A stretch of DNA of 64,000 nt, taken from positions 14,970 to 78,969 of the forward strand of contig CAZKGR010000014.1 of NCBI GenBank assembly GCA_964552465.1, written 5' to 3'. Origin of the DNA: an uncultured bacterium (GTDB lineage Bacteria > Electryoneota > Electryoneia > Electryoneales > Electryoneaceae). Shown one piece after another: positions 15,495 through 43,759 of this stretch (its first letter is position 1; the number at the start of each line of letters is the position of its first letter). The translations under genes were made by a program, and so were the position numbers. The notes below the pieces were generated by a model. It was not told the origin of the DNA and did not search any database. It saw nothing but the letters and a program-made list of their open reading frames with translations.

Positions 15495-17393
15495 TCAGCC
15501 TGCATATTGCTTCATTTTTTCGCACACGATTCGTGAATCGATCCGTCCACGCAGCACGTCCATCGCGTGTCCCATCGCCATGCGGAACAGGTTGTCTTCA
15601 CGGCGCGGATTCTCACTTTTTGCCAATTCAACAGCTTCTTCAATAACGCGCATCATCTCGGCTTCATCCACCGAGTCCCATTCGAGCCGCTCGAGCAGTC
15701 TGTCGAGTGACCGTTCGGGTTTTTCCGTCCACGCCTGCAGCAGGTCGAACAGGCCTTCACGGTACACCCGGCCTTCACCCATCGCAATCAGCAAGTCTTC
15801 CATCTGGGCAACGCTTAGCGAATCCACCGGATACTCACGCCGTTGCAGTGCCGTCATCATTCGTGCAAGCAATTCGCCGCTGCGCATTGGATCAACTGTT
15901 CCGTTTCCAGCCAGTTTGTCGTGCAATTGTGCAAACCGAGTTATCGGCAGCAATTCGACGATGTCTTCTGGAAGATTCTGTTCGCGATAAGTCTGTTCAC
16001 GTAACCACGGTGCGACAGGGACGTTCAATCGCGCAGCCTCGACACGTTCTTCGGTGATCTCATGCGGTGGCGAATCAGTATCCGGGTACATCCGGTCTGG
16101 GCCGGGCAGAACACGTTCGAAATCGTTGCGGTTGTTGTTTAAGGCTTGCCGTGTTTCGTTGGGAATCGCGACGATAGCCTGTGCGAACCGGTCACGGATT
16201 TCCTCAGCGGCCGTGTTGGTATCATCTTCTGGTCCCCACACCAGCACCGCAACATCATCATCATTCATATCGAGCTGCGATATGACAAGCTCACGGTCCT
16301 TCTCAATCAGCCCACCAGCTTCACCATCCGTGTGCAGCATGTTCGGAAGCTGATCGAGGCAGGCGACTACGCGTATTTGTCCGGAAATATCATCTGCAAA
16401 AGTTCGGCCTTCCAGTGGCCAGGTTAGGATGCCTTTCGCATTCGGGAACACGACTGCGCGGATTGGATCACGTACTTGCACCGCTGCGGCCAGATCTCGA
16501 TGTGCCGGGTGTGCGGAATCGAGTCGCAGACTAGAGATAGTTCCAGGACGATCACCCGGGTTGAATCCTCGCTTGTGCAGTTCGTCGCGCAACGCAAGCA
16601 GAGCCTGCTGCCGTTTTGCTTCGTAGCTGGTCAACGCAGCGATACGTGATATCGCTGGAACGCCCTTGATCTCGACACGTGTGGTACCGCTAATCGAAAC
16701 GTTAACATCCTGTCGTCCAGCGCCAGCTCCGCGACGAACCATCTGCGTAGCCCGCAGCATGCGTGCGATACGCATTGCAGCCTCTTGGGCTTCTTCTGGA
16801 GTCTCGAGGGTTTTATCAGTAACGACTTCGATCAATGGCATGGACAGACGATCAGCCATGAATACGATCCGGTGACCGGTATCAGAGATTTCACGGCACG
16901 AGTCTTCTTCGAGTCCGAGCTGAATGACACGGACTACTTTTCCGTTGGAGAGGGGAAGCTCGCCGTCAACGCCGACGATAGCCGTACGTTGGAAACCGGC
17001 CGGGATGGAGCCGTCAAGATATTGCTTGCGCAGGATGTGCAGCTCGCCGACGATCTTACAGCCAAACGCGAGCGCTATTGTCAGTGCGATGTCAATAGCT
17101 TCTTCGTTGATCAGGAAGGGGGGAGTGTCGTCCATCTCATAGGTGCAGACTGTCTCACGGTTGAGCCTGTAGATGATTTCCTTCTTCGTCTTGAATTCCA
17201 TCAGCGCGGTGCCGTCATATTCGCCGAGCTCACTGAGGGTGGGGCGCATGTGTCTCAGAACTTCCGCGTGCCAGGCATCGCTGTACTTCCCGGCAGGGCA
17301 GTTGCAGAACAGTTTTTTCTCTGTCATGATCTGGTGATGAATCTCCAGACCGCAAGAGAAACCCAACTGTTTCCACTGATTCCCGTTGCTCAT
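15495..17393 (-). CDS. GatE-like glutamyl-tRNA(Gln) amidotransferase subunit (archaeal-type GatB/GatE family with insertion domain)
   Basis: GLEIHHQI...KLFCNCP N-terminal GatB/E signature; a roughly 150-aa insertion after the cradle domain; a GatB/YqeY-type C-terminal domain (AMGHAMDVLRGRIDSRIVCEKMKQ). Start placed at the ATG at 17393, with AGGAG 9 nt upstream. Length about 632 aa, like GatE rather than the roughly 480-aa GatB. Confidence 0.6.
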   Translation of the reverse strand: MSNGNQWKQLGFSCGLEIHHQIMTEKKLFCNCPAGKYSDAWHAEVLRHMRPTLSELGEYDGTALMEFKTKKEIIYRLNRETVCTYEMDDTPPFLINEEAIDIALTIALAFGCKIVGELHILRKQYLDGSIPAGFQRTAIVGVDGELPLSNGKVVRVIQLGLEEDSCREISDTGHRIVFMADRLSMPLIEVVTDKTLETPEEAQEAAMRIARMLRATQMVRRGAGAGRQDVNVSISGTTRVEIKGVPAISRIAALTSYEAKRQQALLALRDELHKRGFNPGDRPGTISSLRLDSAHPAHRDLAAAVQVRDPIRAVVFPNAKGILTWPLEGRTFADDISGQIRVVACLDQLPNMLHTDGEAGGLIEKDRELVISQLDMNDDDVAVLVWGPEDDTNTAAEEIRDRFAQAIVAIPNETRQALNNNRNDFERVLPGPDRMYPDTDSPPHEITEERVEAARLNVPVAPWLREQTYREQNLPEDIVELLPITRFAQLHDKLAGNGTVDPMRSGELLARMMTALQRREYPVDSLSVAQMEDLLIAMGEGRVYREGLFDLLQAWTEKPERSLDRLLERLEWDSVDEAEMMRVIEEAVELAKSENPRREDNLFRMAMGHAMDVLRGRIDSRIVCEKMKQYAG

Positions 17394-17644
17394 ACCTACA
17401 ACTCCTGAATCCACGCTGGACAGTTCTACTGGAGGATACCACGATTCAACCAGAGTGATGAAGTATAGTGTGTGTGTGGAATTCCTGCAACGATATCCTC
17501 GCGAGACTACAGCGTGTTGGTGCGAGTTCTCATTCGATGAGTGGTGGACTTGCTCGTAACGGTCCTCTGCGCTACTTTGGCATGGCACTTGGCAACAAGA
17601 AGTTGCGTCCTGCCGCAGCCCAATCTCACAATGGAAGTTGTGTC

Positions 17645-18592
17645 ATGCGAATATTGCGTCTTCTCCCAGTTCTTACTCTGCTGCTCACGTTTTTACTACT
17701 CAGTAGTTCTTGCTCTTCCGGTGAAAATAACGAGCCCCGCGAATTCACAATTGTCATGTCTGGCTATTTAATGGGTCAGGTAGATCCGTGCAAATGTCCT
17801 GGGAATCCGATTGGTGGGCATGCTCGCCGGGCGACGGCCATGAACAACGAAGCGAAGCCGGGAAGCGGACTTCTCACTGTAGACGCAGGCAAATGGGTAT
17901 CGCTCGATCAGGATAATGGTGAGCTTGATTCACGGATCACGGCTGCTGTTCTTTCTGAGATTGGCGTGCAGGCAGTGAATGTGACAATGCGTGACGCTCG
18001 CCTTGGTAAGCAGACGCTGCTCGAATTGCGCAAGGAGTATGACCTCCCGTTCTTATCCGCGAATTTGGTCGATACGACGAATCAGAAGCCGCTTTTCCCA
18101 GCCTATGAGATAGTTAAAGTGAAATTCCGGGATGGTGGGTCGTTGGAAGTTGCAGTAATCGGCGTCTGTCGCTCGGGCAGTAGCAACTACATGCCGCCAG
18201 AGACAGGTCTGGAATTTGTCAACTCGGATGAAGTGCTACTTAAGGCTTATAAGAAGGTGATGGACAAGCCGTGCGTGATCATTATTTCAGACGCCGACCG
18301 TTCTGTTGCCGCAAATTGGCTCGGTATGCTTGAGGAAGAGACTGGCAGTCGTCCAGACATGATCCTTTCCAGTAACATGCACCCTGTCCGTACAAACCGT
18401 ATTCTCATTGGAAAAACTCCGATGACAACGGCTGGACGTCAGGGTAAATATCTCGATTTATTGCACGCTTTCCCATTGGATCAGGGTGGGTGGGATGTGC
18501 GCAAGACCGGCATTGAGTTGAATGATGGCATTGCTGATGATCCCCGGATCGTTGACATAATCGCTGAGTTGACATCTCAGGGTGGCGAGTAG
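17645..18592 (+). CDS. hypothetical lipoprotein
   Basis: Signal peptide MRILRLLPVLTLLLTFLLLSSSC ending in a lipobox. No confident domain call. Confidence 0.5.
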   Translation: MRILRLLPVLTLLLTFLLLSSSCSSGENNEPREFTIVMSGYLMGQVDPCKCPGNPIGGHARRATAMNNEAKPGSGLLTVDAGKWVSLDQDNGELDSRITAAVLSEIGVQAVNVTMRDARLGKQTLLELRKEYDLPFLSANLVDTTNQKPLFPAYEIVKVKFRDGGSLEVAVIGVCRSGSSNYMPPETGLEFVNSDEVLLKAYKKVMDKPCVIIISDADRSVAANWLGMLEEETGSRPDMILSSNMHPVRTNRILIGKTPMTTAGRQGKYLDLLHAFPLDQGGWDVRKTGIELNDGIADDPRIVDIIAELTSQGGE

Positions 18593-26864: not shown

Positions 26865-28328
26865 ATGGAGACCGAAGTCATGAGATCTATTCTTCTCGTT
26901 GTCTGTTTGCTGGCAGTGTCATCTGCCCTCGCGAGCCCAGTTTCTCTGGAAGAAGCGACGATAGCTGCCCATCGATTTGTCGAGTTCAGAACCGCATTAG
27001 ATCAATGGGATGGTCAAACGCCTGCAGAGATTCGTTTGGAACGCGTGATTGAGCATGAAGCGCAAATGTTGGCGTACTACTTCGAAGTTGATCCCGCCGG
27101 TTGTGTGCTGATATCCGGATTCCGCGAACTGCCACCGGTCAAGATGTACTCAGAACATCACCGCCTGACCTTTGAACAACCTGAATCCGCAGGGGTGATG
27201 ATCACTCAAGTGTTGCAGCAAAAGGCAGCGACCATCCGCAAGTATCCAGACCTCCCGGCAATGGCAGCTGCAGGCGTAGATGTCACGGCTGTGCAAGAGT
27301 GTTACGACTTGTGGCAAGTATTCACCCAACCGTCACACGAGGCGTTTGTCGAAGAAGCGGTTGCTCGAGAACTTGATGAATACATCCCCGGCACCATCCT
27401 GATCGATTCCATCTGGCATCAGGAAGCACCGTACAACAATTTCTGTCCGATCGAGAACACGGAGAACTGCAAAGTCGGCTGTGTCGCGACCGCTACCGCA
27501 CAAATCATGTATTACTGGCAGTGGCCAGAAGCAGGGCAGGGATCACATGGTTATACGTGGAATGGGCAACTTGTCTCCGCGAATTTCAGCGATCCGTACG
27601 ATTGGAACGACATTCTGCCGGAATACGGGCAACCATGGGAACACACCGAAGACGAACTCAACGCGATCGCTGAATTGTGCTTTGAAGTCGGCGTAGCATA
27701 TGAAATGAACTATGGGGTGGATGGCTCCGGTGCGTTCACTTCAGACGTGATCACGATTCTACCACAGTATTTCCGTTACCTCGATGGCATAGCTGAAGAG
27801 TCCAGAGTCGCGTATCCGGATGATCAGGCATGGTTCGACATGCTTTGCACTGAGCTTGATCTGGAACGTCCGATGATGTACACCATCCGAAACGCTGATT
27901 GGGGTCACGCTATTGTAGTTGATGGATATCGCGTCGAGTTGGATGTCAACGAGCTACACATAAACTATGGCGGGTGGGAGGATATATTCCTCGGGTGGTA
28001 CGCGTTGGATGCCATTCCTTATGCCGACTGGCCCGATACCGAAACAGCGTATCGCTACATCCAGCCAGATACCCAGGCCGGCGATCCCGATGCTGTAGTG
28101 ATCACGCTTACCCCGGAACAATACCCATACATGATAGTCCCGCAAGGCGGATCCTTCACCTATGACCTGACACTCGAAACTAACTTGGATCAACCTGTTT
28201 ACGGATGTCCAAAAGATCCTCTTCGTCCAGTAGAGACGAAAAGCCTCATCCAGGTAGAAAGGGCGGCCCTGTTTGCTTGTCAAACAGGGTTTCATTTGTT
28301 AGGTAGTAGTCGATGGATAAGTGTATGA
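26865..28328 (+). CDS. C10-family (streptopain/PrtT-like) cysteine peptidase with N-terminal pro-domain; 3-prime truncated, no T9SS CTD
   Basis: Signal peptide; catalytic Cys block NCKVGCVATATAQIMYYWQWP and His block WGHAIVVDGYRVE. Homology to the paralog at 29817..31730 stops after TLETNLDQP. The last roughly 42 codons derive from repeat-like sequence and run through a terminator-like hairpin. Confidence 0.7.
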   Translation: METEVMRSILLVVCLLAVSSALASPVSLEEATIAAHRFVEFRTALDQWDGQTPAEIRLERVIEHEAQMLAYYFEVDPAGCVLISGFRELPPVKMYSEHHRLTFEQPESAGVMITQVLQQKAATIRKYPDLPAMAAAGVDVTAVQECYDLWQVFTQPSHEAFVEEAVARELDEYIPGTILIDSIWHQEAPYNNFCPIENTENCKVGCVATATAQIMYYWQWPEAGQGSHGYTWNGQLVSANFSDPYDWNDILPEYGQPWEHTEDELNAIAELCFEVGVAYEMNYGVDGSGAFTSDVITILPQYFRYLDGIAEESRVAYPDDQAWFDMLCTELDLERPMMYTIRNADWGHAIVVDGYRVELDVNELHINYGGWEDIFLGWYALDAIPYADWPDTETAYRYIQPDTQAGDPDAVVITLTPEQYPYMIVPQGGSFTYDLTLETNLDQPVYGCPKDPLRPVETKSLIQVERAALFACQTGFHLLGSSRWISV

Positions 28329-29816: not shown

Positions 29817-31730
29817 ATGCGAACCATGATGCTTGTTTGCTGTATTGTGCTGGTAATTTCCACTGCACTGGCTGACACTGTTACTCTTGAGGATGCGACA
29901 ACCGCCGCACAACGATTTGTTGAGTACCGCACCGCGTTGGATTCATGGGATGAAAACACACCGACTGATATTCGTCTTGAAAGAATCATCGAACAGGATG
30001 GAATGCCAATCGCGTACTACTTCGAGGTTGAACCTGCGGGTTGTGCGCTAATCTCGGGTTACCGTGAACTACCCCCGGTCAAGATGTACTCCGAACAGTA
30101 TCGCCTTGAATTTGATCATGCTCAATCCGCCGGGATGATGATCACCCAGGAATTGCAACAGAAGGCGGCGACTCTCGCTCGACATAACGATCTGGCCTCC
30201 ATGTCAGCCGCTGGCATTGACGTATCCGCAGTGCAGGAGTGCTATCAACTCTGGCAGGTGTTCACGCAGCCATCACTAGACTCGTTTATGGAAGAAGCCG
30301 CCAGCCGTGAACTGGACGAATATGTGCCCGGAACCTATCTGGTCGACGCGATCTGGCACGAATTTACGCCTTACAATGCTTACTGTCCTGTTTATGATAA
30401 TGAACACGCCCAGGTCGGTTGTGTGGCGTTGTCGTCAGCTCAGATAATGTACTACTGGCAGTGGCCACCGGCTGGACAATCATCACATCAATACCTGTGG
30501 AATGGGGAATGGATTTCTGCGAATTTCAGCGATCCCTATGATTGGAACAACATCTTGCCAGAATACGGTCAACCGTGGGAACACACAGTGGCCGAGCTGA
30601 ACGCGATCGCGGAATTGTGTTTTGAAGTTGGCGTAGCATATGAAACGATGTACAGCGTATTTGGATCAGGAGCCGATCCAACAGACATTCCGCTCGTTCT
30701 CCCTCAGTATTTCTTCTACCAACTTGGTATTTCAGAAGAATGGAAGATCAATTACCCGGATGATCAAGCCTGGTTCGATGTATTGTGTGCAGAGTTGGAC
30801 TTGGAACGTCCGATGATGTACATCGTCGAAAACGACTTATGGGGGCACGCATTCGTCGTTGATGGTTATCGCGTCGAGTTGAATGTCAATGAGCTCCATA
30901 TCAACTATGGGGGGTGGGAGAATATCTTCCTCGGTTGGTATGCAATTGACTCTATACCCTACTCCGATTGGCCTGATGCTGAAAGAGCATATTTGAATTT
31001 CCAGCCGGATTTCGACGGCTATGATCCAATTCCATTATCTATCAATGTTATTCCAGAAGAACAGCAATACCTGCTTGTTCCCCAAGGTGGGTCCTTCGCT
31101 TACGATGTAACCCTGGAAACAAACATAGATCAACCTCAATTCGGTTGGGTCTGGATTGAACCCATCCTGCCTTCAGGGCAACCGTACGGTCCCATCCAAA
31201 GCTTGCGTATGCTTTTCCTGCCCGGGATGTCGCTTTCTATCTCAAACATAGTGCAGGATGTTCCGCTTGATGCACCGCTTGGCTATTACCAGTACTGGAT
31301 TCATGTGGGATCGACGATGGGTGTTCCTGTATCATCCGACTTTTTCCCGTTCTCTGTTTACGCACCGGAACCAGACAACGTGGCGGGTAATCATGAATGG
31401 GAATCGCACGGCCTCGAACGTCTTGTAGCAGGATCATCCAGCGAACCATCGGGATTGCAGCCACAAGTATGCACCGTCGCCCCGATCTATCCAAATCCAT
31501 TCAACGGTTCGACAACGATTACAATGTCGCTTGCAGAAACGGCTATGGTCCAAATTGATGTTGTGAATACGCTTGGGCAGACAGTGTTGCAAATCACGAA
31601 AGGAGTCCATTCTCATGGGCAACATCGGTTCCAGTTTAATGCCGAGGCGCTGACAAGCGGTGTGTATTTCGTGACTACAAGTGCAGCGGGGCAAAACGTT
31701 AATGTTCAAAAGATCCTTCTACTGCAATAA
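29817..31730 (+). CDS. C10-family (streptopain/PrtT-like) cysteine peptidase with T9SS C-terminal sorting domain
   Basis: Signal peptide; pro-domain; catalytic Cys HAQVGCVALSSAQIMYYWQWP and His WGHAFVVDGYRVE; C-terminal CTD (YPNPFNGSTTI...VYFVTT...KILLLQ). GGGAGGGG RBS. Confidence 0.8.
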   Translation: MRTMMLVCCIVLVISTALADTVTLEDATTAAQRFVEYRTALDSWDENTPTDIRLERIIEQDGMPIAYYFEVEPAGCALISGYRELPPVKMYSEQYRLEFDHAQSAGMMITQELQQKAATLARHNDLASMSAAGIDVSAVQECYQLWQVFTQPSLDSFMEEAASRELDEYVPGTYLVDAIWHEFTPYNAYCPVYDNEHAQVGCVALSSAQIMYYWQWPPAGQSSHQYLWNGEWISANFSDPYDWNNILPEYGQPWEHTVAELNAIAELCFEVGVAYETMYSVFGSGADPTDIPLVLPQYFFYQLGISEEWKINYPDDQAWFDVLCAELDLERPMMYIVENDLWGHAFVVDGYRVELNVNELHINYGGWENIFLGWYAIDSIPYSDWPDAERAYLNFQPDFDGYDPIPLSINVIPEEQQYLLVPQGGSFAYDVTLETNIDQPQFGWVWIEPILPSGQPYGPIQSLRMLFLPGMSLSISNIVQDVPLDAPLGYYQYWIHVGSTMGVPVSSDFFPFSVYAPEPDNVAGNHEWESHGLERLVAGSSSEPSGLQPQVCTVAPIYPNPFNGSTTITMSLAETAMVQIDVVNTLGQTVLQITKGVHSHGQHRFQFNAEALTSGVYFVTTSAAGQNVNVQKILLLQ

Positions 31731-35441: not shown

Positions 35442-38400
35442 TTGCCACTCGAAACCGTGTCATTTCTACGCTATCATAGGAGCGTCACCTCACAGGCACG
35501 GAAACCAATCATGCTCGAGACACCCAGCAAGCTTGCTGACCGATTGAACGAATGGACGCCATACGCTGAAAAGGATGAATCCAACAGCGAACTTGCAGTC
35601 ATCATTCTTGACGATATAACTGCATTGCTGGCGGAAAAGTCCGAGGCGGATCTTGCTGCACATCACGATTCTTTCCATCAATTCCTTGAACTAACCGGTC
35701 GTCCCACCTACCTGGAATCGTTACCGGATGATGATGCACGTCTGCGGTGGTCTGATGTTGCACTGGAAATTGTGCAGCGAGTGAACTACACACTCGAGGA
35801 CATGCTGAACGCTCGTATCAGCGAGATTCCCGACACAACATATTTCGAAGAGCTGATGGCGGGTGAATCCATCCGCTGGAGCTATGCACAGGTACAAAGA
35901 CGTATTCGAGCGATCGCAGCAGTCTTCTGGCGTGATGCTGGAGAAGACGAACCTCGAATCGCGTTACTCGTTGACAATTCATTGGATGGTGCTTGTTGTG
36001 ATCTGGCATGCCTGCTCCACGACATCCTGATCACACCGCTGAACGTGCATTTTGATTCTGAAGAGCTGGCTTGGATCATCGAACGGTTGCAAATCAATGC
36101 CGTCGTCGTCGATCGGGAGGATCGACTTCGCAGGATGCAGGAGGTTCGGAAACTCACGAAATGCGATTTCCGCATCTATGCGATTCATCTGGAACGCGAC
36201 AGGGTGGAGGGGAAGGCGATTCCACTTGTCGAAGCGTTTTCCCGTTTGTCAGCCGATGATGTGAATGATCAATTGGACGCTCGTCCGCGTTTTGATCTGC
36301 ATGAGATCTGCACGGTGATGTTCACATCCGGAAGTACCGGTCGTCCAAAAGGTGTTTGTTTTTCCCAATTCAATCTAGTCTCAAAACGATTTGCACGTGC
36401 TGCTGCGCTGCCTTCTGTTGGGCGAGATGAAGTGCTGCTGTGTTACTTACCGCTATTTCACACGTTTGGCCGTTATCTCGAAATGCTGGGCATGCTCTAC
36501 TGGCGGGGAAGATACGTGTTCGTCGGAAATCCGTCCACGGAAGCCCTGATTGCCAGCATGAAACGTATTCGTCCCACCGGGTTAATCAGCATTCCGCTCC
36601 GTTGGTTACAGATACGTGACAGGTCGCTCTCAGTGATGGAATCACTGCCGACCAGCGAGGAGAAGCAGGAAGCTTTCAGCGAGATCACAGGTGGGCGGTT
36701 ACGCTGGGGATTGAGTGCGGCTGGTTATCTCGAGCCCAAAGCATTTCGATTCTTCCAGATGCATGGTGTTGCACTGTGTTCCGGTTTTGGGATGACAGAG
36801 GCTACAGGCGGAATCACGATGAGCCCGCCGGGAGATTATGTCGATAACACAGTTGGTCGAGCGCTGCCAGGCATAGAGATCCGGCTATCTGAAAACGGTG
36901 AAATGTTGATCACGGGAGCGTATGTCGCTCGCTATTTGAAGGAGGATGGTGAGGGGCTGGAAGTCGAATCCGGAGATGAGCTGGATGGTGATGATTGGCT
37001 ACACACTGGTGACATTTTCCGTGAGATTAAGCCAGGTCATCTGACCATTGTTGACCGGATCAAAGACATATACAAGAACATTCGCGGGCAAACCGTTGCG
37101 CCGCTGCGTGTGGAACGTAAATTCGCCACAGTTCCGGGGATCAAGCGGACGTTTCTCGTTGGCGATCACCGAGCGTTTAACGTATTGATGATCGTTCCTG
37201 ACCTTGATGATCCAGTGTTGGCGGATGCACCCGACACGGAGAGTCGCCGCGATTATTTCCGTCAAATAGTTACAACAGCCAACCAGGACCTGGCACCTTA
37301 CGAACGTGTCGTCAATTACACTCTGCTCGATCGTGACTTTGACATTGACAAGGAGGAGTTGACGTCTAAGGGCACAATGCGCCGCAAGGTGATCGAGGAG
37401 AATTTTGCCGAGGTTATCTCTTCACTTTATGAAAGTAGCTATGTAGAGCTTGAAGCAGCTGGAATTCAGGTACGAATACCACGCTGGATTTTCCGTGATC
37501 TGGGCATTCTGGAGAGCGACTTCGTCGCAAAGGTCGATGAACCAACATCAGAGCACAATGGCAGTGTATACCTGACAGACAATGAGCATGACCGGACACT
37601 GCCGATTCGCCGTGATACTCGGAACGGATATGTCATTATCGGCGACTTGTCGTACCATATCCTGGGTGATGTCATTGATTTGGGTATGTTTGCTCGCCAA
37701 CCACGATTGTGGGCTGCGAATCCATCTTTGATGAACTTTGTCCCCTGTCGCGAGGGGTGGGATGTCCCGTTCAATAAGCACGTAATGCCTCACGCAGCAC
37801 TTCCCACCAACGACAATGAACGGACACTTGAACTCGTCCAGTCAGTTGAACCGTCGCATCTTTCAGATTCACAATTGCGGGAGTTGAACCGTGATTTGCA
37901 GATCGCCCTTTTTGATACAGTCGAGAATTCGATTCAAGTGTTGGAGAAGCTTAGCGAATCGTTGATCTCGTTCGATGATCGCCTGGGTGGAGTTGCACGC
38001 TTACGTTTGACAGCATTAGCCACGCATCCAGACGAACAGGTCCGCAGCACGGCTTATCGTATTCTGCTTCTTGACGAACCGATGCAGGATTATAGTGTTT
38101 CGTTTCCGGCGTTTGTGCAATCCGGTTTGTCATTCCTCAACGAAGAATCGATCAAGCTCATATCGCGTGAAGGCTTTGAAAAGCGTCGTCTGGCCGCACT
38201 TCGGCAACGCTTGTACTCCTACCGGATTCACCTTGACTGGCCTGCAAAACCTATGGTGCAACGGCAATTCAAGAATGTGTTCCGTTTGCTGATCAATTTT
38301 GTTCGTTTCAATCCGGCGTACTACAAGAGTGTCCGCGCAGAGTTGGCAAGTTGGTTGCTGCATCGAGTTGATCCGCAAATATCACGGTTTGCGGAGATGA

Positions 38401-40220
38401 TGCTGGATCATATGGTATCGTGGTTCGAAGGCCGGCTGGTCGAAAACGCTGTCTCTATTCCTGAATCACTGCTGGAAGAGATGATAGTTTTCGATGAAGA
38501 TCTGGATGAGGAACAGCGAATCACCCTCCAGGACATGTTGCTGTACACGACCTTCCTCAAGCAGTCTGTGATGCTAACGTTCAATGAGGAAGATTTCGAC
38601 ATTGACCAGGTACCGGCGGGCGGGATCTGGGTTTCTCGAACTAAGGCGAGTGGCGATTACAATTTCTATCGTGTCAGCGTGAACACAATCTCTGGCCGTC
38701 ATTTCGATCTGCTCCTGGTTCAACGTGAAGATATGAATGCCCGCGTGGTCATGGACACGAATCATTGGATGATCGCCATTGGTGGACATCCATACGAACA
38801 GCGTACCCTCCCTCGTTTTGGTTGTATCCGTCCTGAGTTGGCAACGATGTCCCTGGAGTATGTGAACGAGCTTACTGCGTGGGAGAAGATCCGTGAATAC
38901 GGTGGTAGTTCGTCTCAGGCTAGTCATGTCGTGCATGAGGCGGATTGGCACCGGTTGCTGGTAACTGGTATGGCAACCTTCTTCCGGGCTTGGAAATATT
39001 CAGGAAAGCGAATTATCCCTGGAGTGATGTCGCCTTCAAACGTGGTTGTTCCCGACTTGGATTTTCGCGAAGAAGCACTAATCCTGTCGTTAAGCGGATG
39101 GGAAGAATACAGCACTCCAATCACGCTGATGCGTCCGTTGTGGTCCAATTTCTTCCGCAAAACGATTTCACTGTACCCGCTAACTGATCGCGTGTTGGAT
39201 GAACGATGGTTGTTCGATGCTGTTATCGAGGGTCTGGGATCAGTGGAAGGGGAAGAATTCCTCAAGGACTTCTCATATGAAATTGAAACAATTGAGAATA
39301 ATCCTTTCTCAGCCAAATTCGTCGAGGACTTGCACGACTACATCGAAAAAATCAGCACGCAATGGTATGTGCCTCAGCCTGTCCGAAACGCAATCCACCG
39401 CTATCACGCGTGGCAAAAGATCAATCCGAACGTCACCAGCCAGGCATGCGCTGAACTGTTGGAAGGATTGACCTCGATGTACCACATGCACCGGTACGGT
39501 GAAATTGCTCGGTACTATCTGTATTCAAGGACGTATTTCGACCTGGCATCAAATGATGTCAAGCGAACGTTCTCGATTCTGTTGGATGAATTGTGGGCGG
39601 AACCGTCCTTACATGCAACTCAACGAGTTGAATTATCTGAGCTTCAGGCGGCTCTGGAATCGCAAGCTGATCGGGATGTGTTCAGCCGGTTGGTGTTCCC
39701 CCGCGCGCATAAACCGCAGACGGTGGAAGTGCTGACCTTTGGCGAACGTGGACGGAAAACTGTGGTCGTACGTACAAACATGGTCGACAACCACGGTGAG
39801 GGTTATGACATCCGCGAACCCATCGAACCGGAAGAGGTTGGGTCGTTGTACAGGCTCTTCTACCAGGAAAGATTTCCCAAGTCGGTCAGCGAACAGGATC
39901 GCCATCTCGTTGTTACGGACGCTACTGACCGCGTGATCGGCGGCTTGACATTCAAGGATCAGGACAAAGAGGTTGTTCACATGGATGGGCTGGTAACATC
40001 CGGCCCGTTGATGGGGAGGGGGATTGCAACTGCCTTACTGGAAGATTTTGTGACCCGTATGGCCAGCCGTGGGGTGAAGGTGCTGAAGACCGATTTCATC
40101 ATGCGTGATTTCTGCGAACGGCGGGGTTTCAACGTGAACAAGAACTGGGGTGGACTGGTGCGGTTCATCTCTCAGGACGAGCCCGAACTCGACCGCGGCG
40201 AACTTCCACCCAAGGAATAG
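35442..40220 (+). CDS. very large multidomain protein: N-terminal AMP-forming acyl-CoA ligase domain, about 850-aa region of unknown function, C-terminal GNAT acetyltransferase domain
   Basis: TSGSTGRPKG AMP-binding motif and adenylation core (about aa 280-700). C-terminal GNAT motif A (LMGRGIATALLEDFV). The true start may be the internal ATG at 35511. Confidence 0.7.
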   Translation: MPLETVSFLRYHRSVTSQARKPIMLETPSKLADRLNEWTPYAEKDESNSELAVIILDDITALLAEKSEADLAAHHDSFHQFLELTGRPTYLESLPDDDARLRWSDVALEIVQRVNYTLEDMLNARISEIPDTTYFEELMAGESIRWSYAQVQRRIRAIAAVFWRDAGEDEPRIALLVDNSLDGACCDLACLLHDILITPLNVHFDSEELAWIIERLQINAVVVDREDRLRRMQEVRKLTKCDFRIYAIHLERDRVEGKAIPLVEAFSRLSADDVNDQLDARPRFDLHEICTVMFTSGSTGRPKGVCFSQFNLVSKRFARAAALPSVGRDEVLLCYLPLFHTFGRYLEMLGMLYWRGRYVFVGNPSTEALIASMKRIRPTGLISIPLRWLQIRDRSLSVMESLPTSEEKQEAFSEITGGRLRWGLSAAGYLEPKAFRFFQMHGVALCSGFGMTEATGGITMSPPGDYVDNTVGRALPGIEIRLSENGEMLITGAYVARYLKEDGEGLEVESGDELDGDDWLHTGDIFREIKPGHLTIVDRIKDIYKNIRGQTVAPLRVERKFATVPGIKRTFLVGDHRAFNVLMIVPDLDDPVLADAPDTESRRDYFRQIVTTANQDLAPYERVVNYTLLDRDFDIDKEELTSKGTMRRKVIEENFAEVISSLYESSYVELEAAGIQVRIPRWIFRDLGILESDFVAKVDEPTSEHNGSVYLTDNEHDRTLPIRRDTRNGYVIIGDLSYHILGDVIDLGMFARQPRLWAANPSLMNFVPCREGWDVPFNKHVMPHAALPTNDNERTLELVQSVEPSHLSDSQLRELNRDLQIALFDTVENSIQVLEKLSESLISFDDRLGGVARLRLTALATHPDEQVRSTAYRILLLDEPMQDYSVSFPAFVQSGLSFLNEESIKLISREGFEKRRLAALRQRLYSYRIHLDWPAKPMVQRQFKNVFRLLINFVRFNPAYYKSVRAELASWLLHRVDPQISRFAEMMLDHMVSWFEGRLVENAVSIPESLLEEMIVFDEDLDEEQRITLQDMLLYTTFLKQSVMLTFNEEDFDIDQVPAGGIWVSRTKASGDYNFYRVSVNTISGRHFDLLLVQREDMNARVVMDTNHWMIAIGGHPYEQRTLPRFGCIRPELATMSLEYVNELTAWEKIREYGGSSSQASHVVHEADWHRLLVTGMATFFRAWKYSGKRIIPGVMSPSNVVVPDLDFREEALILSLSGWEEYSTPITLMRPLWSNFFRKTISLYPLTDRVLDERWLFDAVIEGLGSVEGEEFLKDFSYEIETIENNPFSAKFVEDLHDYIEKISTQWYVPQPVRNAIHRYHAWQKINPNVTSQACAELLEGLTSMYHMHRYGEIARYYLYSRTYFDLASNDVKRTFSILLDELWAEPSLHATQRVELSELQAALESQADRDVFSRLVFPRAHKPQTVEVLTFGERGRKTVVVRTNMVDNHGEGYDIREPIEPEEVGSLYRLFYQERFPKSVSEQDRHLVVTDATDRVIGGLTFKDQDKEVVHMDGLVTSGPLMGRGIATALLEDFVTRMASRGVKVLKTDFIMRDFCERRGFNVNKNWGGLVRFISQDEPELDRGELPPKE

Positions 40221-40414: not shown

Positions 40415-40446
40415 AAACTGCCACGGACATTCGCCCGTGGCAGTTT
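40415..40446. terminator. bidirectional terminator hairpin AAACTGCCACGG...CCGTGGCAGTTT
   Basis: 12-bp perfect stem lying between convergent genes. Confidence 0.55.
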
Positions 40447-40490: not shown

Positions 40491-41942
40491 TTATCTGACC
40501 AGCATCACCTTTTGTACCTGGTCAAGGTATCCTGGAACGGTTGCCCGGACGAAATACAATCCGCTGGACAATCCTGAAGCGTCAAAGACCAAGCTGTGCG
40601 AACCAGCGTTCGCAATTCCCTGGTGCAGAGTAGCTACCTGCTGTCCGTTGACGTTGTACACGGCAACAGTCAGGTCAGCCGCATCGGGAAGCGCAATATC
40701 GACCGTCGTTGATGGGTTGAACGGGTTCGGATACGCAGCGTTCATCGCATACGCATTCGGTAGCTGATTATTTGAACCAGCGCCAGTGATAGTAAAGTCG
40801 CTGTTCGTCCAGTCCGACGGGTCAAACACATAATCGCCGTCTGTCGCGACACCGGTCTTGATAAATGGGAAGCTGTCCTGAACCATCAGACCAGGGTTGT
40901 TCGGAACGCCGACGGTACCGATGAACTCATACTCACCCATTGGTGCACCCGCGGGAACTACCTGAGTCTGGCCGGTAACGCTGACATCCATGAATGCCAT
41001 CATGTTGAATGCAATGTTGGCCAGTGGTCCAACGGTAGATCCATCTGGAAGGGTGACAAAGGTCCGGTAACGGACGCCGTTCGCCTGGAGGAAGGTGTTG
41101 TTGATGAATTGAGCATCGTAGACAACATCGCCACCACCGGCGGGTATGGTCGTATTTGTCGGCGTCAGGATCAGTTGCACGGATTCTGGTTCTGCGCCTA
41201 CAACCGCCATGTTCGATTGGATGACTTCGTGCGTGTTGTCATTCTGCACATACACGACAACCGAGATGTTGTCATCCATGATCAGGTCGCCATTCAGTGT
41301 GATCGGCCAGTCGAACGAGACGTCGAAATTGACAGTTTCGTTAGTGCCGATGGAGAACGGCAGTCCGTCATCATCTGGAGCCATGTCGAGCATGTCATAA
41401 TGCCACTCACTCTGACCGTTCCAACCCGTGAAACCGTTGTAATAATTGTTCATGAGCCCGAAACGGATCTTGTAGTTGCCAGACACAGCAACATCGGCCG
41501 ATGTAACCTGGACCGACATATCGACAGAATTGTCTGAAGCAGATGCGCTACAATCAAGTGCAATCGGACTTTCGATAGCGAGACGGTTATCAACAGCAGT
41601 CTGCAGCAGTTGCGGCGTGATTGGCCAGCGGTCGAGCAGACCGTCCACCATCAATGTGGGGAGTAAGTTAATCGGATAGTAGTCGAACCGACCGGTATGT
41701 TCAGCCCCGTTTATTTCCTGCCAAGGGTCGCCAGCATACCAGTTGGCGTGGAATACAATTATGCTGACATCCTCACCTCCGTTGCCTTCGAAGAAAGTCT
41801 GGATCGTCTGCGCCGCAGACGGACAGGTGCCTCAACCATGACCTGTGAATTCTTCGAACATCACTTTTCGAGGGAATGCGTGGGCTGATGCGGCCAGCAG
41901 GCCAATCACCATTATGCCCAGGGTAAGACGACGTGCAAACAT
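40491..41942 (-). CDS. secreted thioredoxin-fold (Omp28/redoxin-like) protein with T9SS C-terminal sorting domain; in-frame TGA at 41832..41834 read as selenocysteine (UxxC)
   Basis: ATG at 41942 with GGGAGG 6 nt upstream. Signal peptide MFARRLTLGIMVIGLLAASAHA, then FEEFTGHG-[TGA]-GTCP, a U-G-T-C motif at the thioredoxin CxxC position. The hairpin GUCUGCGGCGCAGAC starts exactly 11 nt after the UGA. The frame stays open to a T9SS CTD (AYPNPFNPSTTVDIALP...LYFVRA...KVMLVR). The ORF track split it at the TGA. Confidence 0.55.
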
Positions 41943-42064
41943 CACTGCCTCCCGTGTTTTCGGTGTCTGATCTACATGCAACTTTAGGGTATCTTATAGT
42001 CTAGGGTTGAAATCAGAGACATACAAGCTTCAGGTGTTAGTTTTCAGAGAATATCCAATAAAAA

Positions 42065-42089
42065 CGCCCGGTGGATTTAACCACCGGGC
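42065..42089 (-). terminator. intrinsic terminator GCCCGGTGGATTTAACCACCGGGC followed by a T-run on the minus strand
   Basis: Perfect 9-bp GC stem immediately downstream of the 42120 gene stop. Confidence 0.6.
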
Positions 42090-42119
42090 TTGTAATTCCG
42101 AATACATAAACTCCAATAT

Positions 42120-43562
42120 CTAGCGAACCAGCATCACCTTTTGCATCTGATCCATGTGACCCGGAACTGTTGCACGGACAAAGTACAGGCCGCTGGCTAA
42201 GCCTGAAGCATCAAACGTCAAGTTGTGTAATCCAGCGTTTGCAATTCCCTGGTGCAACGTTGCGACCTGCTGTCCGCTGACGTTGAAGACTGCAACTGTC
42301 AAGTCAGCCGCTTCCGGCAACGCGACCTCAAGCGTTGTGGTCGGGTTGAACGGGTTCGGATACGCAGCATCCATGGCGAATTCGGACGGCAGCGTAATTA
42401 CGGCATCGCTACCTTCACTCGAGGTTTCGAACCAGTTGCTGTTTGGGAACTCAAAATTGCCGCCATCAGGAGCATTACCCAGTTTCAAGAATTGGAAACT
42501 GTCTTCCGCGACCAGGGTCCACGGTGTCGGTCCGGCTTGCGCGACAAATGTGTAAGTTCCAACTGGTGCCATGCCAGGAACTGCTTGAACTACATCAGTA
42601 CGAACAATGTCAACACCTGGAATGTAGGTGATGTTGTAGGTGTTGATCGGGTAGTTATTACCGTTCGGAAGAATCGCGAGCGTGCGCACCTGGCCCGGTG
42701 TTGCCACATCATAGTTGTTGGTGATCAAGGCATCAAAGACCAGGTTTCCGCCGTTGCCGGGAATGTAGATCGGATCATACATCGGCATCAGATCGAGCGT
42801 GATGTCTGGAGGTGTCCAACCAACCGCAGCCATTTCCGACTGGAGGACTTCACGACCACTGTCATTCTGCACATAGGCAATGACTGTGACGTTATCCTCG
42901 GTGATCGGATCACCGTTCAGCGTAATCGGCCAAGGGAACGAGACATCGAAGTTGATCGTTTCGTTGGCATTGATGGAGAATGGTAGACCGTTATGATCCG
43001 GCGCCATATAGAGCATGTCGTAATGCCAAACGCTCTGACCATTCAACCCGGTGAAACCAGAGTATTCGTTCTGCATCAGTCCGAAACGAATCTTGTAGTT
43101 CCCAGACACAGGTACATTTGCTGAGGTGACTTCAACAGACATGTCAACCGCATTGCCGACAATATTTGCCGTGCATTGAATCGCAATCGGGCTGTCTACC
43201 GCGAGGCGCGTGTTCATCGCCGTTGTCAATGTTGCATCACTGATCGGCCACTGGTCAATAACACCATCCACCATCAGCGTAGGTAGAGCCATTATGTTGT
43301 AGTAGCCACAACGACCGTTATGATCAGCGGCGTTCAAGAGTTGCCATGGGTCACCGGCATACCAGTCTTCGTGGAACACGATCATGGTGGTATTGTCAGC
43401 GTTGTTTACATGAAAGTTGTAGATCGTCTGCGCCGCAGACGCGCAGCCACCTCAACCATGACCCGTGAATTCTTCGAAGATCACCTTGCGTGGGAATGCG
43501 TGGGCTGATGCGGCCAGCAGACCGATCATCATGATGCCCAAGGTTAGACGACGTGCAAACAT
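42120..43562 (-). CDS. paralogous secreted thioredoxin-fold T9SS cargo protein; in-frame TGA at 43452..43454 (UxxC = U-G-G-C)
   Basis: ATG at 43562. Near-identical signal peptide; FEEFTGHG-[TGA]-GGCASAAQ. The identical 15-nt hairpin lies 11 nt downstream of the UGA. C-terminal T9SS CTD. About 60 percent aa identity to the 40491 gene elsewhere. Confidence 0.55.
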
Positions 43563-43759
43563 CTCTGCCCCCTTGTCTTTGTTGTCTGATCTACATACAA
43601 CTTTTTGTGTATCGTGTAGTCTAGGAAGGAAAACTTAGGGATTCAAGCCTCGGACACAAAGAAATCAAAAAACTCTTTCGCTCCACTTCCTGATTCCGTT
43701 GCTGAGGTTAAAGCGTGAACGGGGACACTTTGTCCTCAAAGTGTCCCCGGATCATCCAA

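What the first reader, a model, noticed from the sequence alone, without database searches (positions are those of the whole stretch)
40491..43562. Two paralogous T9SS cargo proteins carry an in-frame TGA forming a UxxC motif with a SECIS-like hairpin 11 nt downstream: candidate secreted selenoproteins
The minus-strand genes 40491..41942 and 42120..43562 each begin with an almost identical signal peptide. FEEFTGHG is then followed by TGA (41832..41834 and 43452..43454) and by G-T-C-P or G-G-C-A, so the TGA sits at the first Cys position of a thioredoxin-type CxxC (U-x-x-C). The frame then stays open for about 440 codons to a canonical T9SS C-terminal sorting domain. The paralogs have diverged to roughly 60 percent aa identity elsewhere, yet the TGA is retained at the same codon. 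Exactly 11 nt downstream both mRNAs carry the identical 15-nt hairpin GUCUGCGGCGCAGAC, and all synonymous sites across those six codons are identical. That spacing is the bacterial SECIS geometry. TGA is a normal stop elsewhere in the window (nupC, C10 copy 1), so recoding rather than an alternative genetic code is indicated. Selenoproteins exported by the type IX system are not something I know to be described, and a T9SS cargo with a redox-active Sec would be unusual.
Basis: partly seen in the sequence, partly recalled or inferred. Interest (0 to 1): 0.85.

Follow-up and report, generated by a model that had tools for sequence, protein, structure and literature searches.

The report
Two surface-exported selenoprotein genes
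Two neighbouring genes for secreted thioredoxin-like proteins almost certainly read an in-frame TGA as selenocysteine at their active site. The protein superfamily was already known to include selenoproteins, but this branch carries a type IX secretion tag and gene callers cut it short.

Summary
Both minus-strand genes have a signal peptide, then FEEFTGHG-TGA-GxC, an identical 17-nt hairpin, about 445 more open codons and a type IX secretion (T9SS) sorting domain.

The selenocysteine (Sec) reading is strongly supported:
- 15 homologous genes from independent assemblies keep TGA at this codon.
- 95 of 149 representative homologues have Cys there, as CxxC.
- All 5 "N-truncated" database entries I checked hide the same TGA.
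- Each Sec form has a 7-8 bp hairpin with a G-first apical loop 17-24 nt after UGA. It meets all four published bacterial SECIS constraints and shows compensatory base changes between lineages.
- A Cys paralogue in the same genome lacks the helix.
- TGA ends 10 of 37 other window genes.

The fold is thioredoxin plus a beta-sandwich. The best solved match is HBP35, a Porphyromonas T9SS cargo with thioredoxin activity.

The kind is not new. The superfamily's Sec form was described in 2008 as "hypothetical protein GOS_C" and is curated as NF045500, "Omp28-related selenoprotein". The window proteins are distant relatives (23% identity, below the model cut-off). They differ from GOS_C in carrying a T9SS tail.

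I could not test for Sec machinery genes.

The parts
40491..41942 (-). Gene A: full selenoprotein reading frame, 483 codons with UGA at codon 37, ending in TAA
   Evidence: A GGGAGG Shine-Dalgarno-like motif lies at 41953..41948, just upstream of the ATG (read).
41877..41942 (-). Gene A signal peptide, MFARRLTLGIMVIGLLAASAHA, with an AHA|F cleavage-type site
   Evidence: By inspection (positive n-region, hydrophobic core, AxA). Homologues have the same layout. No signal-peptide predictor was available.
41832..41834 (-). Gene A in-frame TGA, the predicted Sec37 and first residue of U-G-T-C
   Evidence: aligned with Cys in 95 of 149 homologues.
41823..41825 (-). Gene A Cys40 (TGT), the predicted resolving cysteine of UxxC
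41805..41821 (-). Gene A SECIS-like hairpin CGUCUGC-GGC-GCAGACG: 7 bp, triloop GGC, loop 17 nt after UGA
   Evidence: Constraints taken.
41193..41876 (-). Gene A thioredoxin-like domain plus Omp28-like beta-sandwich (residues 23 to about 250)
   Evidence: Pfam Omp28 27.0 bits, below its cut-off; NF045500 43.4 bits. AF2 model of the Cys paralogue has pLDDT 96.4 and best matches HBP35, 5y1a. The window model of this stretch has block pLDDT of about 80-95 after a lower-confidence first 20 residues (57, 69).
40857..41180 (-). Gene A middle Ig-like beta-sandwich (residues about 255-362), the part that differs most between the paralogues
   Evidence: (pLDDT about 65).
40494..40748 (-). Gene A T9SS type A C-terminal sorting domain
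   Evidence: PF18962 37.8 bits (cut-off 27); TIGR04183 38.0 bits (cut-off 23). Modelled as a beta-sandwich with pLDDT 85-90.
40415..40446 (.). Hairpin after gene A, terminator-like and readable on both strands
42120..43562 (-). Gene B: paralogous selenoprotein reading frame, 480 codons with UGA at codon 37, ending in TAG
   Evidence: 60% identity to gene A.
43452..43454 (-). Gene B in-frame TGA, the predicted Sec37 of U-G-G-C
43425..43441 (-). Gene B SECIS-like hairpin, identical in sequence to that of gene A
   Evidence: In gene B the 60-nt minimum-energy fold prefers an overlapping alternative pairing.
42123..42362 (-). Gene B T9SS type A C-terminal sorting domain
   Evidence: PF18962 37.0 bits; TIGR04183 38.8 bits.
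42066..42089 (-). Intrinsic-terminator-like hairpin with a T-run between gene B and gene A, so each gene is probably its own transcription unit

Best explanation
Both genes encode secreted thioredoxin-fold selenoproteins.

Decoding (inferred from sequence). The ribosome starts at the ATG behind a GGAGG-type site. At codon 37 the UGA is read as selenocysteine, because the 17-nt hairpin whose GGC loop lies 17 nt downstream acts as a bacterial SECIS. It recruits SelB, GTP and Sec-tRNA(Sec). This gives an active site Sec37-x-x-Cys40 at the N-terminus of helix 1 of a thioredoxin fold.

Export (inferred by analogy). The signal peptide takes the chain through the Sec translocon and the protein folds in the periplasm. 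The C-terminal type A sorting domain then hands it to the type IX secretion system. The protein ends up on the cell surface or in the medium, as shown experimentally for the structurally closest solved protein, HBP35 of Porphyromonas gingivalis.

Function (inferred). It acts as a thiol/disulfide-type oxidoreductase outside the cell. Sec is the attacking nucleophile and forms a selenenylsulfide with Cys40. The substrate and the electron donor are unknown.

Origin. The pair arose by a lineage-specific tandem duplication, since a 74%-identical relative (L001) has one copy at the same syntenic site.
For: (1) Sec/Cys pairing. The TGA aligns with the first Cys of CxxC in 95 of 149 representative homologues, for example FEEFTAEWCPPC and FEEFTNTYCGPC.

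(2) The TGA is retained at this codon in 15 genes: window A and B, L001, L007, L009, L010, L012, L015, L016, L018, L027, L038, L039 and two genes in L040. Their identity to gene A runs from 74% down to about 26%. All 5 'N-truncated' database proteins I checked (P0005, P0007, P0010, P0013, P0053) have it. The window's own locus recurs with the TGA in JGI, ENA and Logan assemblies, and the collection index also lists NCBI as a source for P0003.

(3) The ORF before the TGA is under protein-level selection. The signal peptides have diverged while FPRKVxFE.[FY]TGHG is kept with synonymous changes. The stretch between the TGA and the next possible start codon is also conserved as protein.

(4) SECIS. 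The window hairpin has a 7-bp stem, a 3-nt loop GGC, 17 nt of spacing and dG of -10.7 kcal/mol. It meets all four constraints of the published bacterial model: loop of 3-9 nt, stem of 4-16 bp, G in the first two loop positions, spacing of 16-37 nt and energy of -7.5 kcal/mol or lower.

(5) Other Sec forms carry different sequences of the same shape: CACCAGC-GUC-GCUGGUG, CACCUGC-GGC-GCAGGUG, CAGCAUC-GGU-GAUGCUG, CAAGCCGC-GGU-GUGGCUUG, GAGCGUC-GGU-GACGCUC, CAACAUC-GUU-GAUGUUG and CUGAUCCA-GUUG-UGGAUCAG.

(6) Covariation. In the in-register alignment 100% of cells pair and 3 of 7 pairs carry changes on both sides; slid controls give 0. In the hairpin-anchored alignment 5 of 7 pairs do.

(7) The Cys paralogue in the same Ca. 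Electryonea clarkiae MAG (L011) has two mismatches in that helix. The mean best local hairpin is -11.7 kcal/mol for 10 Sec forms and -7.7 for 11 Cys forms.

(8) The genetic code is standard: TGA ends 10 of 37 window genes.

(9) Fold. The AF2 model of the Cys paralogue domain has pLDDT 96.4, with beta1, then CxxC, then alpha1 of a thioredoxin fold, followed by a beta-sandwich. Its best PDB match is HBP35, 5y1a (E 3.9e-14, TMq 0.79); thioredoxins and an Omp28 domain also match.

(10) T9SS. Both C-terminal domains score above the curated cut-offs. Two more window proteins carry the domain above its cut-off and one is borderline. HBP35 is an experimentally shown T9SS cargo with thioredoxin activity that depends on its two cysteines (PMC2907840, PMC3120885).
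Against: - No selA, selB, selD or tRNA-Sec gene was seen. None is in the 64-kb window or in the loci fetched up, which is where tRNA-Sec was looked for. The rest of the genome could not be searched.
- No experimental evidence of selenium in any member of this clade was found.
- The 60-nt regions after UGA do not fold better than shuffled sequence. In gene B the minimum-energy fold prefers an alternative pairing.
- The hairpin overlaps codons for a conserved Ala/Ser/Pro-rich helix, which favours GC-rich near-palindromes. Two of the alignments used for covariation were anchored on the hairpin, and the sequences are few.
- No T9SS machinery gene lies in the window, so export by T9SS rests on the sorting domain alone.
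- No extracellular reductant is known.
Confidence: 0.78

Rival explanations
1. The UGA is recoded, but not to selenocysteine. Either SelB with a Cys-accepting tRNA of the kind described for 'Sec-to-Cys recoding' inserts Cys, or near-cognate read-through inserts Trp or Cys. The proteins would then be ordinary CxxC (or WxxC) thioredoxin-like T9SS cargo.
For: The Sec machinery was not seen. The site accepts Cys in most homologues. The Cys-inserting tRNA route is recalled from my own knowledge and was not tested here.
Against: The hairpin fits the SelB-type SECIS model and covaries, which plain read-through would not need. The same superfamily has Sec forms accepted by curators at this same site. 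If Cys were the product, there is no evident reason to keep a costly UGA in 15 genes when TGT/TGC paralogues exist in the same genome.
Confidence: 0.08
2. Both genes are pseudogenes inactivated by a nonsense mutation, or they reflect an assembly error.
For: Gene callers in all source databases split them into a 36-aa ORF and a truncated downstream ORF.
Against: The same codon is TGA in 15 genes down to about 26% identity. There is no other frame disruption in about 445 downstream codons. The window locus was assembled independently in JGI, ENA and Logan data with identical TGAs. Protein-level conservation holds on both sides of the TGA.
Confidence: 0.02
3. Translation stops at the UGA. This would give a 36-residue exported peptide and a separate downstream protein started at an internal codon.
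For: Internal candidate starts exist: TTG at 41654 and ATG at 43385.
Against: Those starts are not conserved between the paralogues or the orthologues. The 20-60 codons between the TGA and them are conserved as protein and form helix 1 and strand 2 of the thioredoxin fold. A downstream-only product would have neither a signal peptide nor strand 1, and a T9SS cargo cannot reach the periplasm without a signal peptide.
Confidence: 0.03
4. They are true selenoproteins, but their working place is the periplasm, for example oxidative folding or isomerisation of other T9SS cargo before export. In that case the C-terminal domain serves for later disposal or anchoring.
For: T9SS cargo fold in the periplasm, where electron donors and acceptors for thiol-disulfide exchange exist (general knowledge). 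No surface reductant is known. The genes sit among other cargo genes with sorting domains.
Against: HBP35, the closest solved structure, is found on the cell surface after removal of its sorting domain (PMC3120885). Nothing in the sequence suggests retention.
Confidence: 0.12

Closest known systems
'Hypothetical protein GOS_C' (Zhang & Gladyshev 2008, PMC2398784), which is NCBIfam NF045500 'Omp28-related selenoprotein'
   Same: It belongs to the same superfamily (hhalign probability 97.4%, E 1.4e-11). Pairwise identity is 23% (E 3e-7), and Sec aligns with Sec. The local motif matches: [ED][ED]FTG..U..CP.A[AS]. It has a Trx-like fold, a UxxC site, an N-terminal signal-like region and many Cys homologues. 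It is the best NCBIfam hit of both window proteins.
   Different: The window proteins score 43.4 and 40.6 bits against a cut-off of 200, whereas a GOS_C read scores 336.7. GOS_C relatives are about 320-380 aa and have no Por_Secre_tail. Some carry TSP type 3 repeats (PF02412) instead. The window clade adds an Ig-like middle domain and a T9SS type A sorting domain.
HBP35 (hemin-binding protein 35) of Porphyromonas gingivalis, PDB 5y1a
   Same: It is the best structural match of the N-terminal two-domain unit (Foldseek E 3.9e-14, TMq 0.79). It has a thioredoxin-like domain with two active-site cysteines needed for activity, plus a C-terminal T9SS sorting domain. It is exported to the cell surface by the Por/T9SS system (PMC2907840, PMC3120885).
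   Different: HBP35 uses Cys, not Sec. Identity is only 20% in the structural alignment, and phmmer finds no sequence-level match to PDB chains. Hemin binding and a role in haem acquisition are shown for HBP35 and are untested here. I did not inspect the residue-level equivalence of the CxxC sites.
Omp28 family (Pfam PF11551; NCBIfam NF033782, an outer membrane lipoprotein of P. gingivalis; PDB 2r2c)
   Same: The beta-sandwich domain and part of the Trx region give sub-threshold hits (27.0 and 32.2 bits against 34.9; 41.3 and 31.6 bits against 150). The orthologue P0004 carries a precomputed PF11551 hit. 2r2c matches the model.
   Different: Omp28 proper is a lipoprotein, not a cargo with a sorting domain. 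The window proteins have no lipobox and fall below both curated cut-offs.
Bacterial SECIS of the E. coli fdhF type, described by the bSECISearch consensus model
   Same: It is a stem-loop just 3' of UGA inside the coding region, with a small apical loop that starts with G followed by G or U. The window hairpin has a loop 17 nt from UGA and dG of -7.5 kcal/mol or lower, so all four constraints quoted in PMC13188914 are met.
   Different: The window has a perfect 7-bp helix with a triloop. There is no bulged U and no long lower stem, as I recall for fdhF (from memory). Binding to SelB was not tested.

Membership tests
Bacterial selenoprotein gene (SelB/SECIS-dependent UGA recoding) | The in-frame UGA aligns with Cys in homologues (Sec/Cys pair) | tested here: met
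   95 of 149 representative homologues have C at the aligned site, as CxxC. A Cys paralogue sits in the same MAG as a Sec form.
Bacterial selenoprotein gene (SelB/SECIS-dependent UGA recoding) | The UGA is conserved in orthologues, with the frame intact and conserved on both sides | tested here: met
   15 genes carry it. About 445 codons remain open after it.
Bacterial selenoprotein gene (SelB/SECIS-dependent UGA recoding) | [quoted passage not shown] | tested here: met
   Loop GGC, 7 bp, 17 nt, -10.7 kcal/mol. Criteria are from PMC13188914. Covariation is shown.
Bacterial selenoprotein gene (SelB/SECIS-dependent UGA recoding) | selA, selB, selD and tRNA-Sec are present in the same genome | not testable with these tools
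   They are absent from the window and from the loci fetched up.
Bacterial selenoprotein gene (SelB/SECIS-dependent UGA recoding) | Selenium is found in the protein (75Se labelling or mass spectrometry) | not testable with these tools
   This needs an experiment. The organism is uncultivated.
NF045500 Omp28-related selenoprotein (GOS_C) | HMM score at or above the curated cut-off of 200 bits | tested here: not met
   The window proteins score 43.4 and 40.6 bits. The GOS_C control scores 336.7 bits.
NF045500 Omp28-related selenoprotein (GOS_C) | UxxC at the start of helix 1 of a Trx-like fold, in the context [ED][ED]FTG | tested here: met
NF045500 Omp28-related selenoprotein (GOS_C) | Domain make-up of members: about 320-380 aa, no T9SS tail | tested here: not met
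   GOS_C relatives lack PF18962. The window proteins are 483 and 480 aa and carry PF18962.
T9SS type A cargo protein | A C-terminal sorting domain above the curated thresholds (TIGR04183 / PF18962) | tested here: met
   TIGR04183 38.0 and 38.8 bits against 23; PF18962 37.8 and 37.0 bits against 27.
T9SS type A cargo protein | An N-terminal Sec-type signal peptide | tested here: inconclusive
   By inspection only: MFARR, a hydrophobic core, then AHA|F. No predictor was available.
T9SS type A cargo protein | T9SS core machinery (PorK/L/M/N, Sov, PorU/V) in the genome | not testable with these tools
   None lies in the window. Indirect support: two further window proteins carry the sorting domain above its cut-off and one is borderline.
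HBP35-like thioredoxin-domain surface protein | The fold of the Trx plus beta-sandwich unit | tested here: met
   5y1a is the top PDB hit, with E 3.9e-14 and TMq 0.79, for the model of the 44%-identical Cys paralogue.
HBP35-like thioredoxin-domain surface protein | Sequence-level homology | tested here: not met
   phmmer of window A against all PDB chains finds no HBP35 match at E of 10 or below. The profile search also finds none.
HBP35-like thioredoxin-domain surface protein | Thioredoxin activity and hemin binding | not testable with these tools
   These are biochemical assays.
Pfam Omp28 (PF11551) | Score at or above the gathering threshold of 34.9 bits | tested here: not met
   27.0 and 32.2 bits.

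The most novel reading that the evidence does not exclude
This would be the first recognised class of selenoproteins delivered to the bacterial cell surface or medium by the type IX secretion system. It would be a widespread, systematically mis-annotated Sec-containing branch of HBP35/Omp28-like thioredoxin-fold cargo in uncultivated FCB-group bacteria (Ca. Electryoneota and relatives), using Sec for redox chemistry outside the cell. About one third of the nearest representative clusters would be Sec forms.
Probability: 0.5. Interest if true: 0.6.

Novelty: new variant of a known kind. Interest (0 to 1): 0.45.

Why it matters
- Annotation. Public gene calls cut these proteins at the UGA and lose the signal peptide and the active site; NCBI names one relative simply 'T9SS type A sorting domain-containing protein', 430 aa. 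50 of the 149 nearest representative clusters look truncated in this way, and all 5 that I checked hide a TGA. The selenoproteome of FCB candidate phyla is therefore under-counted.
- Biology. Known and predicted exported bacterial selenoproteins are periplasmic. A Sec enzyme handed to T9SS would place selenium chemistry on the cell surface or in the medium of bacteria from low-oxygen waters. This raises the questions of what it reduces or oxidises and what recycles it.
- HBP35. The link gives HBP35, whose redox role is unclear, natural Sec variants. That argues the CxxC site is catalytic rather than structural.
- Limit. It is not a new mechanism and not a new superfamily.

Tried and rejected
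- Rfam gathering scan of the window found only the five tRNAs and no curated SECIS or other RNA family.
- ARAGORN on the window and ten loci found no tRNA-Sec.
- Pfam and NCBIfam scans of 37 window ORFs found no selA, selB, selD or T9SS core genes.
- A scan for other in-frame TGAs with long ORFs on both sides found no further candidate selenoprotein in the window.
- The word-index homologue search found only 4 close relatives, all truncated. The exhaustive phmmer search was needed to see the family.
I therefore modelled the Cys paralogue P0006 and, separately, the post-UGA part of gene A.
- Foldseek on the full-length post-UGA model returned only generic Ig-like sandwich hits and was uninformative.
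- Sequence searches of PDB with a profile and with gene A found no meaningful hit.
- Whole-region folding z-scores are unremarkable.
- Literature: no paper holds both Omp28 and selenoprotein, or both AABM5-125-24 and selenocysteine. The Electryoneota papers do not mention selenium use, and no supplements were held for the first of them.
I rejected this because the index only reaches close relatives and ranks by similarity to the query.
- An alternative genetic code was rejected. C10 copy 1, which ends in TGA, is a truncated paralogue and not a read-through case.


Full report
**What is there.** On the minus strand, gene A (40491..41942) and gene B (42120..43562) each start at an ATG behind a GGAGG-like site. 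Each encodes a typical signal peptide (MFARRLTLGIM[VM]IGLLAASAHA) followed by FPRKV[MI]FEEFTGHG. Both then reach TGA at codon 37, at 41834..41832 and 43454..43452. The frame continues with G-T-C-P-S-A-A-Q-T-I (A) or G-G-C-A-S-A-A-Q-T-I (B) and stays open for 446 and 443 codons. The paralogues are 60% identical. Their C-termini match the T9SS type A sorting domain above the curated cut-offs: PF18962 at 37.8 and 37.0 bits against 27, and TIGR04183 at 38.0 and 38.8 bits against 23. A 17-nt perfect hairpin, CGUCUGC-GGC-GCAGACG, lies at 41821..41805 and 43441..43425.

**Not a code change, an error or a pseudogene.**
- TGA ends 10 of the 37 window genes I examined, and several of those stops lie in ATGA-type overlaps with the next gene.
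- The same locus, with both TGAs, was assembled independently in JGI, ENA and Logan data.
- A relative with 74% identity (L001, a 664-kb contig) has one copy at the same syntenic site and keeps the TGA and the hairpin.
- Two further relatives do the same although their signal peptides have diverged: MAG87 (JAHLLB01) and the 4.54-Mb contig CAXXKJ010000002.1, at about 60%.

**The family, and Sec/Cys pairing.** An exhaustive phmmer search with the post-UGA domain found 979 representative relatives. Of the 149 best:
- 95 have CxxC with the first Cys aligned to the window's TGA, for example FPARVLFEEFTAEWCPPC and FPRTVLFEEFTNTYCGPC.
- 50 are called as proteins that begin just after that site.
- I fetched the DNA for five of those 50 (P0005, P0007, P0010, P0013, P0053). 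All five have an in-frame TGA at the same codon, preceded by a signal peptide.
- A metagenome scan added four more TGA forms, L015, L016, L018 and L027. L040 holds a second one next to the first.
- In all, 15 genes carry the TGA.
- The MAG of Ca. Electryonea clarkiae holds both a Sec form (L010) and a Cys paralogue (L011).
- That MAG is the only named relative. The window's organism is therefore probably an uncultivated FCB-group bacterium near Ca. Electryoneota. This is an inference from best hits only.

**The RNA element.** The published consensus for bacterial SECIS elements asks for four things: an apical loop of 3-9 nt and an upper stem of 4-16 bp; G in one of the first two loop positions; 16-37 nt between UGA and the loop; and -7.5 kcal/mol or lower (PMC13188914). 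The window hairpin has a GGC loop, a 7-bp stem, 17 nt of spacing and -10.7 kcal/mol, so it meets all four.
- Most other Sec forms checked (8 of the 10 outside the window's own clade) have a hairpin of the same shape but a different sequence. The exceptions are L027, whose best hairpin has a 10-nt loop starting with C, and the second gene in L040, which was not folded.
- In these hairpins the loop starts 17-24 nt after UGA and always begins with G: GUC, GGC, GGU, GGU, GGU, GUU and GUUG. L016 has a GGUC tetraloop by my own reading; the automatic scan preferred another fold there.
- On the seven sequences that align in register with the protein, every cell pairs and three of seven pairs change on both sides. 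Structures slid by 1-3 nt give none.
- On a hairpin-anchored set, five of seven pairs show double changes. That alignment was chosen on the structure and the sequences are few, so it is supportive rather than a formal proof.
- The Cys paralogue L011 encodes nearly the same peptide (CAPASRV) but has two mismatches in the helix.
- A crude scan gives a mean best local hairpin of -11.7 kcal/mol for 10 Sec forms and -7.7 for 11 Cys forms.
- Weak points: the 60-nt regions do not fold better than shuffles, and gene B's minimum-energy fold uses an overlapping alternative. The paralogues' identical codons in the hairpin (5 of 5 against 0.49 gene-wide) sit in a 5' region that is conserved overall (0.72).

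**The protein.**
- *Thioredoxin unit.* AlphaFold2 on the Cys paralogue domain, which is 44% identical to gene A, gives pLDDT 96.4. The order is beta1 (VLFEEFT), the CxxC at the start of alpha1, and then the beta-alpha-beta-beta-alpha of a thioredoxin fold, followed by a beta-sandwich.
- *Structural matches.* The best PDB match is HBP35 of P. gingivalis (5y1a; E 3.9e-14, TMq 0.79). Next come a DUF1223 protein (2axo), an Omp28 domain (2r2c) and many thioredoxins.
- *Rest of gene A.* The post-UGA part of gene A models as the same unit (block pLDDT about 80-95 after a lower-confidence first 20 residues). An Ig-like middle domain follows (about 65), then a disordered linker and a sorting-domain sandwich (85-90).
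- *Other cargo nearby.* Two other window proteins, a C10 peptidase and an 873-aa protein, carry the sorting domain above its cut-off. An FG-GAP protein is borderline.

**Mechanism.** Shown by sequence and comparison: the UGA sits at the catalytic Cys position, it is followed by a conserved, covarying SECIS-type hairpin, and the fold is thioredoxin-like with a sorting domain at the C-terminus. Everything that follows in this section is inferred. SelB with Sec-tRNA(Sec) decodes codon 37. The signal peptide directs Sec-translocon export and the protein folds in the periplasm. T9SS then moves it to the surface and the sorting domain is removed, as shown for HBP35 (PMC3120885). Sec37 attacks a disulfide-type or oxidised substrate and is resolved by Cys40. 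HBP35 has thioredoxin activity that depends on its two cysteines, and it also binds hemin (PMC2907840). Whether the Sec proteins share the haem role is unknown. I put the Sec reading at about 0.85 and the whole chain, including T9SS export, at about 0.78.

**Comparison with what is known.** NCBIfam's best hit for both proteins is NF045500, 'Omp28-related selenoprotein', but at 43 and 41 bits against a cut-off of 200.
- A 2026 review equates NF045500 with 'hypothetical protein GOS_C' (UxxC).
- GOS_C is one of seven new selenoprotein families from the Global Ocean Sampling data. It had 74 Sec and 312 Cys sequences and was noted for a Trx-like fold and UxxC (PMC2398784).
- The published representative reads ...VEDFTGLNUPYCPAAS... 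and scores 336.7 bits on NF045500.
- It is 23% identical to gene A, with U aligned to U. The two clades are homologous at profile level (97.4%, E 1.4e-11).
- GOS_C relatives are about 320-380 aa and have no T9SS tail. Some have thrombospondin type 3 repeats.
- The window proteins are therefore not members of NF045500. They fail its score and its architecture. They are a distinct branch of the same superfamily, with Sec at the same site.
- A full-text search for 'selenoprotein' together with 'type IX secretion' found only one, unrelated, paper.

**What remains open.** The decisive check is whether selA, selB, selD and tRNA-Sec are in the genome. I could not make it. None of them is in the window or in the loci fetched up, and the tools do not allow the rest of the large contigs to be read. 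Recoding of UGA to Cys rather than Sec cannot be excluded without that check.

**Verdict.** This was a good catch of real, mis-annotated selenoprotein genes. The kind, a UxxC thioredoxin-fold Omp28-related selenoprotein, has been known since 2008. What looks undescribed is the T9SS-cargo branch and how common it is. I rate it a new variant of a known kind, with interest 0.45.

Noticed in passing
window 17468..18592 (+): A lipoprotein-like ORF (…LLSSSC…) whose best NCBIfam hit is NF041198, 'UshA-like (seleno)protein' (114.6 bits, cut-off 275). It carries DPCKCPG, the Cys form of that family's CxU site. The window thus holds a Cys version of a second family known to have Sec forms.
   Followed up: partly
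window 15495..17588 (-): The GatB homologue is 697 aa long. The 277-position GatB_N profile is spread over residues 78-516, which implies a large insertion in the catalytic domain.
   Followed up: no
window 26865..28328 and 29817..31730 (+): Tandem C10 cysteine-peptidase paralogues. Copy 1 diverges from copy 2 after …TLETNLDQPVYG and ends at a TGA without a T9SS sorting domain. Copy 2 has the domain (45.9 bits). Copy 1 looks like a truncated or frame-shifted duplicate, not a read-through case.
   Followed up: partly
window 23993, 28359; 31879, 43726; 21704, 40283: Perfect intergenic hairpins recur in near-identical pairs after unrelated genes: CGGTTTGG-AACCAAACCG twice, CACTTTG-N4-CAAAGTG twice, and GTCCGGC-N4-GCCGGAC twice. 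They may be a shared terminator or a REP-like element.
   Followed up: no
window 41943..42010 and 43563..43630 (-): The 5' leaders of the two selenoprotein genes share about 70 nt (CCTAGACTA..GATAC..AAAGTTG.ATGTAGATCAGACA). The first 36 codons are also more alike in codon choice (0.72) than the rest of the gene (0.49). This points to a common promoter or leader element, or to recent gene conversion.
   Followed up: partly
L038 about 950..1000 (protein P0010): A variant active site: …ELQGYC-TGA-GGSQS… A Cys sits immediately before Sec, and Ser replaces the usual resolving Cys (C-U-x-x-S). The hairpin CAACAUC-GUU-GAUGUUG is still present.
   Followed up: no
L024-L026 and L029-L032, near position 1500: Distant homologues have lost the first or both active-site cysteines (EEFTSNASPAC, EEFTSDSSFAA). 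These are presumably redox-inactive members of the family.
   Followed up: no
window 35442..40220 (+): A 1592-aa fusion of an AMP-binding (acyl-CoA ligase-like) domain and a GNAT acetyltransferase lies next to the selenoprotein genes. It is kept in synteny with them in L001, L002, L006 and L007.
   Followed up: no
L040 3136..3932: A second Omp28-like gene with a TGA (…LEFCTGTW-TGA-PYCPEGE…) lies directly downstream of the first in an unrelated metagenome contig. Tandem Sec paralogues therefore occur in more than one lineage.
   Followed up: partly
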